A stretch of DNA of 64,000 nucleotides from the human T2T-CHM13v2.0 reference genome, Homo sapiens. Below the pieces are notes generated by a model. That model saw only the letters and a program-made list of their open reading frames with translations, was not told where the DNA came from and made no database searches. A program made the position numbers and the translations under genes. Location: NCBI RefSeq assembly GCF_009914755.1, contig NC_060931.1; one strand, 5' to 3'. This document shows positions 38,538 through 41,500 of this stretch, piece after piece (within the stretch, counting starts at the first letter, position 1; every line of letters begins with the position of its first letter).

Positions 38538-41500
38538 ATGCTGCCTGCAGCCACAGCCTCCCTCCTGGGGCCCCTCCTCACTGCCTGCGCCCTGCTGCCT
38601 TTTGCCCAGGGCCAGACCCCCAACTACACCAGGTAGGTCTCTTGGCATCTTCCAGACAGCTCCAGTGAACTTCAGACCCCCGATTCCTTTGGGGTTATGC
38701 CTGGAGATATTTTGGGTTCCCTTGCTGACACACCACTCCCCAGATTCCCCACCGCCTCACCCTTCTCTGGCCCCCAAATCCTCCCCATCTGCTGCAAGAC
38801 CTTGGTCTCCTGCAGGCCACCACTGCTCCCATTCCCCCACCTTCGTCCTCTGGTCTCTTAAGTCTCCCCACCCACCCAGATCCTTGACCCCCCATAGAAC
38901 CCAAGAGAGAGCCAAGCTCCTGAACTTGCCTGGTAGCTGGATTCCAGGAAGGAATTCGAGAGGGATTGTAGGGGGAGGAGGGGGCAGTGAGTGGAGACTT
39001 GGGAGTCAGAATCTGAAGTAGTTTGGAACAGGGGCAGGGCTAAGGTGTGGAGCTCGCGGAGCCTGGCCTCCAGGTTCAATCAGAGGGCCATCGCCACTGC
39101 AGCTCCCTCCATCTCTCCACCCCCTCCCCCCCACCGCCTCGTGGCTGTGTCCACATCTGGAAGTAGTTAGGCGGCTCCTGTCCCTGGACTGCCAGGCAGA
39201 GTGAGGCGGGAGTCTGGAAGGGGGGCCGAGGAGGATTCCGGGAATTCCTGTTGGGGTGGGGGTGGGGACTCTTGGGGTTGGAGGGATGGTCGAGTTGCCA
39301 GGCCCACTTTTCCCTTATCTTTGTGGGAGTCTGGGACACCCCAGCCCTGTCCTGGCTGGTGGAAGCTGCCCCAGGTCTCTCAAGGCCTTTCCATTTCATC
39401 CCCCAGCTTCCCTCCTTGGAGTTTCATCCTCATCACCTCATCCCCATCTTGCCAGTGCTCCCCCGTCCCACCCGTCCCTGCTCTTTCCTGACCCCTTTTC
39501 TGTTCTCCAGACCCGTGTTCCTGTGCGGAGGGGATGTGAAGGGGGAATCAGGTTACGTGGCAAGTGAGGGGTTCCCCAACCTCTACCCCCCTAATAAGGA
39601 GTGCATCTGGACCATAACGGTGAGAAACCCCTCTGGGCACTACCCCTTGTTAAAGTCTCAGAGGCAAAAAGGCCTGACTGCGAAGGGACCCCCCCCCCGT
39701 CCCCCCCGCACCACCTTCTCAACCTGGGGCAGCTCCAAGTGTCTTCCCTCTGTCACTGAAGGCATCATTCCCACCGTAACACGCATCATCTTAACCCTTC
39801 CCTCAAATCTTCATTCTCCAGTCCCCGGCCCTCCCTCCTCTTCCAAAGCCTCAGCTCTTGTCCCCTGCACAGGCTACCAGCAGAGCTGCAGAGACCAGGC
39901 CCTCTGCTCTGCACTCACATGGAGGCCCCTTCCCATTCAGTCCGTTTCTGCAAGAAACGCTTGGGGCAGGGGAGCTGCCCTCTGGCTGGGTTGTGTGGGG
40001 CCTGACTCTGTGGGTCCCCGCCTCTGTCCCCGCTATCAGGTCCCCGAGGGCCAGACTGTGTCCCTCTCATTCCGAGTCTTCGACCTGGAGCTGCACCCCG
40101 CCTGCCGCTACGATGCTCTGGAGGTCTTCGCTGGGTCTGGGACTTCCGGCCAGCGGCTCGGACGCTTTTGTGGGACCTTCCGGCCTGCGCCCCTAGTCGC
40201 CCCCGGCAACCAGGTGACCCTGAGGATGACGACGGATGAGGGCACAGGAGGACGAGGCTTCCTGCTCTGGTACAGCGGGCGGGCCACCTCGGGCACTGGT
40301 GAGAACTCCCTCACCTCCGCCTTCCCCCCCTCCAGGCCCCGCCCCGGCCGCAGCCCCGCCCCCAGCCCTAACCTCCGCCCCGCCCACCCCGCGCCCCAGT
40401 GCCTAGGGCCCCCTACCTCCCTGACCCATTTTCCTCACTAACCGCCCCTTCAGTCCCTCCTCCCCGTCTTCTCTCCCCTCCTCCCGCACCCACCCATCCC
40501 TCTTCCAGGGCCCCCCCCAGGCGCGAGGCGGAAATGGGTCACCGACCCGCGGGTGGAATGGGCGGCCTGGGGTTACTGGGACGGTGAGTAACTGCCGGCC
40601 CCCGTCCGCAATCGGGCTCCCTCCGTCGGGCGCGAGGGGGCACCCCAGGGCTGGGGGGACTAGGTTCCTCCAACCCCGGGGGGCCCCTACACCCAGCCCT
40701 GGGCTCCCGATTGCGGTCCCATCACCCCCTCCTGGCGGCAGAAGTCTCCCTTGCAATGTTTCAGGCGGGGACCTCCCTAAAGGGGTCCTCGGGGGCTGTG
40801 CCCCAAGTCGAGGACACCCTCTCCAGCCTGAAAGGGGACTCTGCTGCAGGGCCGGGGAGATGGGATCTCCTAGGGGAAGAGGCGCGGTGCGGCCGCGGGT
40901 CGGGGAGGGGCCAGAAGGGGGCGTCCAGCCAGTTCCTCCTCCCGCTTCCACCGCCCGCCAGTGCGCCCTGCGGCCCCAGACTTCCCCGAGCCGCGCTCCT
41001 CCCGGCCGCTCTCTGTTAACCTGCCCCCATCTTACCTCCCCTTCTTCTCGTCCCCTCATCCTGAGCCCCAGACATCCGAGCTGCCTGCCGGGGCTCCCAG
41101 CCTAGAGTTCTCCTGAAGCTGACCGAGGGTCTCCACCGCCCCCCACCCCCGCTCCTCTCTCCCCTCCCCAGAGCACCAATTTTGCGGGGGGCGGCTGGAG
41201 AAGGCCCAGGGAACCCTGACCACGCCCAACTGGCCCGAGTCCGATTACCCCCCGGGCATCAGCTGTTCCTGGCACATCATCGCGCCCCCGGACCAGGTAC
41301 CGACCCTCCTCCCCGGGCTGCCCTAGGGGACCCAGGCGGCGCCCTCCAGCTTGCAGCCAGCAGAGATTTATTGAAGATCTGCTGTGTCCCGAGCACTGCG
41401 CTTGCGCTGGTGGGCACCCAAAACAGCCCCAACCCCTGCATGCACGCAAACAAAAATGTAAAAATTACAACTGAGACAAGTCTCAGGAGAGCGAGGTACA

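What the first reader, a model, noticed from the sequence alone, without database searches (positions are those of the whole stretch)
40436..40589. Hidden in-frame Trp-rich cassette exon between CUB1 and CUB2 of PCOLCE
Seen in sequence: PCOLCE intron 3 holds a consensus branch point (CACTAAC, 40436-40442), a long pyrimidine tract, acceptor TCTTCCAG|G (40509) and a strong donor ACG|GTGAGT (40583). The 75-nt exon is phase 1/1 like the host intron and has no stop. It would insert (G)[24 protein letters not shown], 25 aa with 4 Trp, between the CUB domains and give a 474-aa protein. Established: PCPE-1 activity depends on cooperative binding of the adjacent CUB1-CUB2 pair to the procollagen C-propeptide. 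Inference: inclusion could produce a weakened or dominant-negative enhancer, or a new aromatic binding surface, as a splicing switch on collagen maturation. It is absent from the canonical 449-aa model; I cannot check whether predicted isoforms include it.
Basis: partly seen in the sequence, partly recalled or inferred. Interest (0 to 1): 0.85.

Follow-up and report, generated by a model that had tools for sequence, protein, structure and literature searches.

The report
Ancient alternative exon in PCOLCE linker
A 75-base stretch inside an intron of a human collagen-processing gene is the intact human copy of a very old optional exon that adds 25 amino acids between the protein's two working domains, but whether human tissues use it could not be checked here.

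Summary
Window 40509-40583 is flanked by AG and GT, is phase 1/1 and stop-free, and would insert [25 protein letters not shown] between CUB1 and CUB2 of PCPE-1, giving 474 aa.

Stop-freeness means nothing in this 71%-GC intron. Conservation decides the case. The same insert sits at the same junction in 16 protein clusters (145 member sequences) of placental and marsupial PCOLCE. These include mouse D3YUE2 and many NCBI 'isoform X1' models. Diverged 26-28-residue versions occur in a monotreme-like record, birds, turtles and a snake, beside insert-free forms.

Within Theria the insert is as conserved as the CUB domains: 0.949 mean pairwise identity against 0.93.

It is therefore a real, amniote-old alternative cassette exon, and the human copy is intact. 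Human use is unverified. RefSeq lists one transcript, and six of seven primate-named clusters lack the insert.

AlphaFold gives the insert no fixed structure. It lies in the flexible linker that is disordered in the crystal structure. The function is unknown. No paper on it was found.

The parts
40040..40298 (+). PCOLCE exon 3 (end of CUB1), the upstream constitutive exon. Its donor is CTG|GTGAGA.
   Evidence: Hub annotation; the CDS rebuilt from it gives the 449-aa protein; donor score 10.49.
40436..40442 (+). CACTAAC, a branch-point-like heptamer with the branch A at 40441, 67 nt upstream of the acceptor AG. ACTAAC (40437-40442) also matches the QKI core ACUAAY (recalled motif).
   Evidence: Unspliced ORFs from other species (P0002, P0003) read ..LTN.. 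across the equivalent place, which fits conservation of CTAAC.
40443..40506 (+). C/T-rich tract upstream of the acceptor, with one internal AG at 40452.
40507..40508 (+). Acceptor AG of the cassette exon (TCTTCCAG|G).
   Evidence: Acceptor score 12.08; 72% of the window's real acceptors score no higher.
40509..40583 (+). Cassette exon of 75 nt, phase 1/1. It encodes (G)[24 protein letters not shown], has 8 CpG and is 75% GC.
   Evidence: The same peptide is spliced at the same junction in 16 therian protein clusters. 19 of 25 alignment columns are invariant.
40584..40592 (+). Donor GTGAGTAAC of the cassette exon. The in-frame TAA at 40589-40591 ends any read-through.
   Evidence: donor score 7.55. 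Three unspliced ORFs from other species end ...WDGE*, which fits a conserved GGTGAGTAA-type sequence.
41172..41296 (+). PCOLCE exon 4 (start of CUB2), the downstream constitutive exon. Its acceptor is stronger than the cassette's.
   Evidence: Hub annotation; acceptor score 17.32.

Best explanation
Window 40509-40583 (+) is the intact human copy of an ancient, frame-preserving alternative cassette exon of PCOLCE, lying in intron 3. If spliced in (40298->40509 and 40583->41172), it inserts 25 residues, [25 protein letters not shown]. The insert lands in the middle of the short flexible tether (residues 151-157) that joins CUB1 to CUB2. The product would be a 474-aa secreted PCPE-1.

Shown here:
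- the sequence anatomy;
- the presence of the same or a homologous 25-28-residue insert at the same junction in protein models across amniotes, next to insert-free forms;
- conservation equal to that of the CUB domains;
- no confident predicted fold for the insert.

Inferred:
(a) Human cells include the exon. It is probably a minor or tissue- or stage-restricted form, because the human table has a single transcript and the cassette's splice sites are weaker than those of its neighbours.
(b) The insert works as a longer tether carrying a short linear motif. The motif has a basic cluster (G-x-x-x-G/A-R-R-K/R) and an aromatic tail (W-x-Y-W/F-D). It would give PCPE-1 an extra contact, either with a matrix or partner molecule or within the molecule. 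It is not a folded domain.
(c) In mammals, turtles and the snake the tail forms WxxW sequons, the recognition motif of tryptophan C-mannosyltransferases in the secretory pathway, so the isoform may be C-mannosylated.

Loss of enhancer activity through added length alone is not the likeliest effect.
For: Anatomy. AG/GT, phase 1/1, no stop, 474 aa. The splice-site scores lie within the range of the window's real sites. Only 3 such pairs exist in 34.8 kb of introns.

Orthologous models.
- A search with the 49-aa stop-to-stop frame found 17 proteins among 46 candidates. Fifteen are spliced PCOLCE models with the insert 96-100% identical. Two are unspliced ORFs.
- A search with residues 145-190 of P0007 found 16 clusters (145 member sequences) among 92 candidates. 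One is the wallaby.
- The sources differ: NCBI 'isoform X1' models, UniRef D3YUE2_MOUSE, and submitters' own annotations.

Sauropsids and a monotreme-like record.
- Snake isoform X1 carries a 27-residue insert and X3 has none.
- Turtles carry 27 residues. Birds carry 26, and a stork X2 form has none.
- The unnamed P0156, close to the echidna protein, carries 28 residues.
- Of 127 stored PCOLCE-like proteins matched by a junction pattern, 24 carry the insert and 101 have the canonical spacing.

Constraint.
- Mean pairwise identity is 0.949 for the insert, 0.928 for CUB1, 0.927 for CUB2, 0.752 for NTR and 0.417 for the CUB2-NTR linker.
- All length differences between lineages are whole codons.
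- In one unspliced ORF compared with human, identity is 76/80 in exon 3. It is 38/75 with 14 gap columns in the intron between, and 24/25 in the cassette.
- G155, R161, W175, Y177 and D179 are invariant across 22 amniote sequences.

Place in the protein. The linker 151-157 is unresolved in the crystal structure and described as flexible.

Fold. The insert has pLDDT below 50 in two AlphaFold runs. It has no Pfam, PDB or Atlas match.

WxxW. The sequon rule comes from the abstracts of PMC10154233 and PMC8433626 (search listing) and from passages of PMC8256286.
Against: No human transcript, junction or peptide evidence was available.

The hub's RefSeq table gives PCOLCE 1 of 1 transcript, while neighbours have up to 24.

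Among primate-named clusters, only Plecturocebus carries the insert. Mandrillus (two clusters), Macaca nemestrina, Cebus, Carlito and Eulemur do not. I read the sequences of Macaca and Cebus. The others I judged by score and by the junction scan.

The other species' proteins are mostly automated predictions, and I could not see their RNA support. Homology projection could have spread a model between related species.

Clusters at 90% identity hide their members, so counts of species are not possible.

Birds lack WxxW (they have W-H-Y-F), so C-mannosylation cannot be the conserved function. About 18% of human secretory or membrane transcripts are predicted to carry such sites (PMC8256286 passage).

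The 2021 PCPE-1 review mentions no PCPE-1 splice variant.

No nucleotide sequences of other species were at hand, so protein-level and DNA-level constraint could not be separated by dN/dS. A RefSeq 'silencer' element (40353-40732, hub table) overlaps the exon.
Confidence: 0.8

Rival explanations
1. The exon is real and used in other amniotes but is effectively silent in humans and perhaps in most primates. On this view the human copy is an intact but unused relic, or is kept for another reason such as the overlapping regulatory element.
For: The human RefSeq table lists one transcript (hub). Six of seven primate-named clusters lack the insert. The cassette's donor (7.55) and acceptor (12.08) are weaker than the flanking exon 3 donor (10.49) and exon 4 acceptor (17.32). 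A RefSeq silencer annotation covers 40353-40732 (hub).
Against: The human peptide is identical to that of seven clusters from other orders. Both splice sites and the branch-point heptamer are intact. An unused 75-nt stretch would be expected to have collected changes since the primate stem (inference from general rates, recalled). One New World monkey model includes the insert. Absence of a model is not absence of splicing.
Confidence: 0.25
2. The stretch is a conserved non-coding element (a regulatory DNA or RNA structure) that automated pipelines have mistaken for an exon, and the error has spread between species by homology.
For: Most hits are predicted models whose RNA evidence I could not inspect. 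The region overlaps a RefSeq silencer (hub). It is CpG-rich, with 8 CpG in 75 nt.
Against: The sauropsid inserts are too diverged from the mammalian one to be projected from it. Yet they sit at the same junction, keep the frame with lengths of 26-27 codons, and keep the same end motifs. X1/X2 or X1/X3 pairs with and without the insert exist. Indels are whole codons. Conservation drops sharply in the adjoining intron. The annotation sources are independent (NCBI, UniRef/Ensembl-derived mouse entry, submitter annotations).
Confidence: 0.05
3. It is a chance pseudo-exon. Human introns hold many AG..GT pairs with decent scores, and a GC-rich intron rarely has stops.
For: All three phases of the 75 nt are open, and the intron has 226-aa and 232-aa open frames. 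80 pseudo-exons reach lower-quartile splice scores in this window's introns.
Against: Cross-species presence and near-invariance of the peptide.
Confidence: 0.01

Closest known systems
Mouse Pcolce long form (UniRef/TrEMBL D3YUE2_MOUSE, 493 aa) and NCBI 'procollagen C-endopeptidase enhancer 1 isoform X1' models of other mammals
   Same: Same exon, same junction (…SGT|G…WD|EHQFCGG) and 24 of 25 identical residues in mouse (T->M). Seven clusters from other orders are 25/25 identical.
   Different: Those are catalogued, mostly predicted, entries. The human RefSeq table given here has no such transcript. None of them has a described function in the papers I could search.
Canonical PCPE-1 (449 aa) CUB1-CUB2 tether, as in the CPIII:C1C2 crystal structure (PMC6372009)
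   Same: Same protein, with the same two Ca2+-binding CUB domains that each capture a substrate lysine. The insert lies inside the linker that is disordered in the crystal.
   Different: The tether grows from about 7 to about 32 residues. It gains an invariant basic pair and four Trp. The effect on cooperative binding is untested.
Artificial linker-lengthening mutants of PCPE-1 (Kronenberg et al., J Biol Chem 2009; recalled, paper not held)
   Same: Extra residues between CUB1 and CUB2.
   Different: As I recall the abstract, lengthening was harmless. Those inserts were neutral spacers, not this conserved basic/aromatic sequence.
WxxWxxW(xxC) motif of thrombospondin type-1 repeats, substrate of DPY19 C-mannosyltransferases
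   Same: The mammalian insert has W-A-A-W-G-Y-W, two overlapping WxxW sequons in a secreted protein.
   Different: There are no cysteines, no ~60-residue TSR fold and no Pfam match. The bird version lacks WxxW.
BMP1/mTLD alternative splicing in the same pathway
   Same: Alternative splicing that changes the CUB-domain architecture of a procollagen-processing component (review PMC8377038).
   Different: That case adds or removes whole domains of the protease. This one adds a short unstructured insert to the enhancer.

Membership tests
Evolutionarily conserved alternative cassette exon | AG and GT boundaries with scores in the range of real sites | tested here: met
   Donor 7.55, with 42% of 48 real donors no higher. 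Acceptor 12.08, with 72% of 50 real acceptors no higher.
Evolutionarily conserved alternative cassette exon | Length divisible by 3, same phase at both ends, no stop | tested here: met
   75 nt, phase 1/1, 474-aa product.
Evolutionarily conserved alternative cassette exon | Orthologous exon at the same junction in other species, with both inclusion and skipping forms | tested here: met
   24 insert-bearing and 101 canonical stored proteins. Wallaby X1/X2 and snake X1/X3 pairs. These are models, not transcripts.
Evolutionarily conserved alternative cassette exon | Exon more conserved than the surrounding intron | tested here: met
   24/25 against 38/75 with 14 gap columns, in one unspliced ORF; 0.949 mean pairwise identity.
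Evolutionarily conserved alternative cassette exon | Inclusion and skipping junction reads in the organism in question (human) | not testable with these tools
   No transcript or junction resource was available. The hub table shows 1 of 1 RefSeq transcript.
PCPE-1 / PCOLCE (CUB-CUB-NTR) | Two CUB domains and one NTR domain | tested here: met
   on P0007: CUB 4e-59 (two stretches), NTR 2.1e-12. The human CDS was rebuilt.
Tryptophan C-mannosylation substrate | WxxW/C sequon in a protein that enters the ER | tested here: met
   W172-A-A-W175 and W175-G-Y-W178. The host protein has a signal peptide (review passage). The rule is from the abstracts listed.
Tryptophan C-mannosylation substrate | Mannose actually attached to Trp | not testable with these tools
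   Needs mass spectrometry of the expressed isoform.
Tryptophan C-mannosylation substrate | Sequon conserved wherever the exon is conserved | tested here: not met
   Birds have S-W-H-Y-F-D with no WxxW. Turtles and the snake keep it.
Thrombospondin type-1 repeat | About 60 residues with six Cys and WxxWxxWxxC | tested here: not met
   25 residues and no Cys. The frame has no Pfam family and no PDB sequence match.
Poison (NMD-triggering) exon | Introduces a stop or a frameshift | tested here: not met
   the frame is kept and only the normal terminal stop remains.

The most novel reading that the evidence does not exclude
The insert is a built-in pseudo-ligand that switches PCPE-1 between states. 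Its invariant Arg pair (R161, R162) would occupy the acidic Ca2+-site pocket of CUB1 or CUB2, which normally captures Lys35 or Lys18 of the procollagen C-propeptide. Its aromatic W-x-Y-W/F-D tail would fill the apolar trench between the CUB domains, which holds Phe6 of the substrate chain.

Inclusion of the exon would then make a latent or re-targeted enhancer. This could explain why a 25-residue 'linker' has been kept almost unchanged for over 300 million years. Inclusion might be held down in fibroblast-like cells by QKI at the conserved ACUAAC upstream.
Probability: 0.1. Interest if true: 0.8.

Novelty: new member of a known kind. Interest (0 to 1): 0.55.

Why it matters
PCPE-1 is studied as a fibrosis marker and drug target. 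All of its structural and mechanistic work uses the 449-aa form (review PMC8377038 and structure paper PMC6372009, passages read).

The alternative exon is as constrained as the catalytic-partner domains. It sits in the tether whose flexibility underlies cooperative substrate binding. This implies a second, selected form of the enhancer that the field has not examined.

If human tissues make it, antibodies, assays and inhibitors designed on CUB1CUB2 may see a different molecule there. If humans or primates have stopped using it while keeping it intact, that is itself a lineage difference in collagen-processing control.

The claim is easy to test with existing RNA-seq and proteomics data.

Tried and rejected
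- Stop-freeness as evidence: rejected. All phases are open and there are long open frames on both strands.
- Rfam scan of 38000-44600: nothing in intron 3, only Alu-type SRP/miRNA-like matches elsewhere.
- Hairpin downstream of the donor (40606-40716): z = -1.89, and 5 of 200 shuffles fold as well. Not pursued.
I re-sent it as the 49-aa stop-to-stop frame.
- PDB sequence search with the peptide: 0 matches at E <= 10.
- ESM Atlas: no usable hit.
- Pfam on the frame: 0 families.
- AlphaFold, two runs (A1 with 29 rows, A3 with 22 rows): the insert has pLDDT below 50 in both. A short helix at 168-174 in the first run was absent in the second, so I make no structural claim. No fold search was run because the insert has no confident model.
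- Complex prediction (canonical CUB1CUB2 26-276, insert peptide 152-182, 2 Ca): the verdict was 'no answer', score 0.02 against a mark of 0.34. The alignments were not used by the tool. This is neither for nor against binding.
- The library of 50%-identity representatives (12,338 hits, 150 listed, 15 fetched) was dominated by multi-CUB giants. The fish and PCOLCE2-like representatives I read lack the insert. Only one form per cluster is held, so this does not show absence.
- Literature. Searches found no paper describing this exon. One search was badly framed and returned papers without PCOLCE.
- PMC9516339 lists Pcolce among 19 genes with validated differential exon usage in differentiating mouse ES cells. 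Which exon is in its table S3.
- PMC5474519, PMC10705168, the uterine-fibroid preprint, PMC8241050 and PMC11106907 mention PCOLCE without isoform detail.
- Kronenberg 2009 (PMC2785188) is not held.
- Motif scan: intron 3 has no GCATG. There are two TCTT near the acceptor, and G-runs downstream of the donor. I draw only leads from these.
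Full report
**What is in the sequence.** Reading 40000-41320 and rebuilding the coding sequence from the hub's exon table confirms every coordinate of the finding.
- CACTAAC is at 40436-40442.
- A C/T-rich stretch runs up to TCTTCCAG|G, with the first exon base at 40509.
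- ACG|GTGAGT follows, with the last exon base at 40583.

The coding sequence upstream of intron 3 is 463 nt, so the intron is phase 1. The 75-nt stretch keeps the frame. The product reads ...[38 protein letters not shown]... and is 474 aa long.

**Is it more than chance on human sequence alone?** Partly.
- The absence of stops is uninformative. All three phases of the 75 nt are open. Intron 3 is 71% GC and holds stop-free frames of 226 aa and 232 aa on the two strands.
- I built crude position weight matrices from the window's own 48 donors and 50 acceptors. The candidate donor scores 7.55, and 42% of real donors score no higher. The acceptor scores 12.08, and 72% of real acceptors score no higher.
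- In 34,805 intron bases only 3 AG..GT pairs of 30-300 nt reach both scores. Of these, 2 are divisible by 3 and only this one is open. At lower-quartile thresholds there are 80 pairs, 31 divisible by 3 and 9-10 open per phase.
- So it is a good pseudo-exon candidate, but candidates of this kind are expected genome-wide.
- Both cassette sites are weaker than the flanking exon 3 donor (10.49) and exon 4 acceptor (17.32). As I recall, this is usual for alternative exons.

**The decisive evidence is comparative.** The 24-aa peptide was too short for the protein search, so I sent the 49-aa stop-to-stop frame 40442-40588 and asked for longer proteins. Of 46 candidates, 17 passed.
- Fifteen are spliced PCOLCE models in which the insert sits exactly between ...SGT and EHQFCGG.
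- They come from water buffalo, Weddell seal, colugo, jaguar, desman, camel, warthog, guinea pig, a vole, deer mouse, mouse (UniRef D3YUE2_MOUSE, 493 aa), a bat, blue whale, pygmy sperm whale and a titi monkey.
- Two (P0002, P0003) are unspliced ORFs that read through the intron and end ...WDGE*. This matches the human GGTGAGTAA.
- A second search restricted to residues 145-190 of the jaguar protein gave 16 clusters among 92 candidates, standing for 145 member sequences. It added a marsupial, the tammar wallaby isoform X1.

**Depth in evolution.** A third search with a wider region (115-220) returned 166 proteins at E <= 1e-20 among 308 candidates, of which 120 were listed.
- The scores are bimodal. 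The 16 insert-bearing clusters score 222-252 bits. Everything else scores 165 bits or less.
- Some sauropsid 'isoform X1' entries scored higher than their neighbours. Reading them shows a homologous insert at the same junction:
  - snake X1, GRSKARRKWAPNHIGPWAFWEPWDYWD (27 residues), with snake X3 lacking it;
  - two turtles, GRPRGRRKWGANHIDSRLAGEPWHYWD (27; the second has RP for RR);
  - birds, GPPHGRRRLGVNNKPHFFGESWHYFD (26), with a stork X2 lacking it.
- An unnamed representative from the 50%-identity library (P0156) has a CUB1 nearly identical to the echidna protein (P0254). It carries [28 protein letters not shown] (28 residues) and then reads into the intron.
- A junction pattern run over all 271 stored proteins matched 127. 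Of these, 101 have the canonical spacing and 24 carry the insert (16 therian, 5 birds, 2 turtles, 1 snake). Two are odd.
- The fish and PCOLCE2-like representatives I read lack it. One form per cluster is held, so absence is not shown.

The exon is therefore at least as old as amniotes.

**Constraint.** I aligned the script-spliced human form with the 16 therian representatives.
- Mean pairwise identity is 0.949 for the insert, with 19 of 25 columns invariant.
- It is 0.928 for CUB1, 0.927 for CUB2, 0.752 for NTR and 0.417 for the CUB2-NTR linker.
- Seven representatives from other orders are identical to human over all 25 residues.
- All four Trp and the RRK cluster are invariant from human to wallaby.
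- Lengths in different lineages (25, 26, 27, 28) differ by whole codons.
- In the one long unspliced ORF (P0003) compared with the human translation, identity is 76/80 in exon 3. It is 38/75 with 14 gap columns in the intron, and 24/25 in the cassette.
- Across 22 insert-bearing amniote sequences G155, R161, W175, Y177 and D179 are invariant. G159, R162 and P168 are nearly so.

This is the pattern of a coding exon, not of neutral intron. It is hard to reconcile with an annotation error copied between species. The sauropsid versions are too different to have been projected from mammals.

**What remains unshown is human use.**
- The hub's RefSeq table gives PCOLCE one transcript, while LRCH4 next door has 24.
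- Among primate-named clusters, only the titi monkey carries the insert. Mandrillus (two), Macaca nemestrina, Cebus, Carlito and Eulemur do not.
- No transcript resource was available to me.
- The other species' entries are mostly predictions whose RNA support I could not see.

The perfect preservation of the human peptide, both splice sites and the branch-point heptamer argues for continued selection in our lineage. I put human inclusion, probably minor or restricted, at roughly two in three.

**Where the insert sits and what it might do.**
- In the crystal structure of CUB1CUB2 bound to the procollagen III C-propeptide trimer, the inter-domain linker (mature residues 126-132, precursor 151-157) is not visible and is described as highly flexible (PMC6372009 passages; PMC6829435 passage; PMC3234718 passage). 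The insert enters between residues 154 and 155, in the middle of that tether.
- Each CUB domain captures a substrate lysine at its Ca2+ site. The substrate's N-terminal residues lie in the cleft between the two domains, with Phe6 in an apolar trench.
- Two AlphaFold runs on the jaguar isoform, with different alignments, gave pLDDT below 50 for residues 152-182. A short helix appeared in one run only.
- There is no Pfam, PDB-sequence or Atlas match.

I therefore read the insert as an extension of the tether that carries a short linear motif: a basic cluster followed by an aromatic tail.
- In mammals the tail W-A-A-W-G-Y-W forms two overlapping WxxW sequons. This is the motif at which DPY19 enzymes C-mannosylate the first Trp in nascent secretory proteins (abstracts; passages).
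- Turtles and the snake keep a WxxW. Birds do not. The motif is also common among secretory proteins.
- C-mannosylation is thus a testable side-hypothesis, not the conserved function.

As I recall the abstract of Kronenberg et al. 2009 (not held), lengthening this linker did not harm activity or binding. A specific new contact, possibly intramolecular, fits the strong sequence constraint better.

A complex prediction of the insert peptide with canonical CUB1CUB2 returned no verdict. It counts neither way.

**Regulation (leads only).**
- The upstream ACTAAC (40437-40442) is both a near-perfect branch point and, from memory, the core QKI site.
- It lies 67 nt from the acceptor, with one AG between at 40452.
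- The unspliced ORFs of other species read ..LTN.. there, which fits conservation.
- There is no GCATG in the intron, and G-runs follow the donor.

**What is known.**
- Orthologous long forms are already in public protein databases: mouse D3YUE2 and many XP 'isoform X1' entries.
- I found no paper that describes the exon or its peptide. Searches found none, and one search was badly framed.
- The one paper citing D3YUE2 only lists it in a serum proteomics table.
- The 2021 PCPE-1 review has no PCPE-1 splice variant in its text: 'splic' occurs twice, both on BMP1, and 'exon' not at all.
- PMC9516339 reports validated differential exon usage in mouse Pcolce during ES-cell differentiation.

**Verdict.** In kind it is ordinary, a conserved frame-preserving cassette exon. 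Its place and degree of constraint make it notable. Human usage and function are open and cheaply testable.

Noticed in passing
window 40606-40716 (+): Two nested inverted repeats just downstream of the cassette donor (arms 40606-40621/40701-40716 and 40639-40655/40692-40708, 88% complementary). As RNA, 40584-40730 folds at -78.7 kcal/mol, z = -1.89, and 5 of 200 shuffles fold as well. There is no Rfam match.
   Followed up: partly
window 40539-40552 and 40893-40906: A 14-nt inverted repeat (93% complementary) pairs a stretch inside the cassette exon with intron sequence 340 nt downstream. It could matter for exon definition. Not examined.
   Followed up: no
window 15804-16049 (-), LRCH4 intron: The only other divisible-by-3 AG..GT pair in the window's introns whose two splice-site scores reach those of the PCOLCE cassette (246 nt; acceptor 12.5, donor 8.8). 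It has stops in all three phases.
   Followed up: no
window 42129-42411, 42892-43325, 44502-44600 (+): Sub-threshold Metazoa_SRP and mir-1268/mir-3135-type matches in later PCOLCE introns and downstream. This is the usual signature of Alu elements.
   Followed up: no
P0236, P0238: Sheep-hybrid and deer protein models of 598 and 635 aa join PCOLCE domains to an MSP domain (PF00635). This looks like read-through annotation into the neighbouring MOSPD3. The two genes are also adjacent in this window (38444-44256 and 48243-51458).
   Followed up: no
window 38301-38600 (+); P0018, P0186, P0192: Three monkey models carry an N-terminal extension of about 70 residues before the normal start. In the human window the same frame has a stop 11 codons upstream of the ATG at 38538, so the extension is not available in human.
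   Followed up: partly
P0172, P0194, P0216: Some 'isoform X1' models (Geoffroy's cat, blind mole rat, chinchilla) lack the CUB1-CUB2 insert. They carry a different extra segment in the CUB2-NTR linker/NTR region instead. 'X1' therefore does not always mean this cassette, and PCOLCE may have a second variable region.
   Followed up: no
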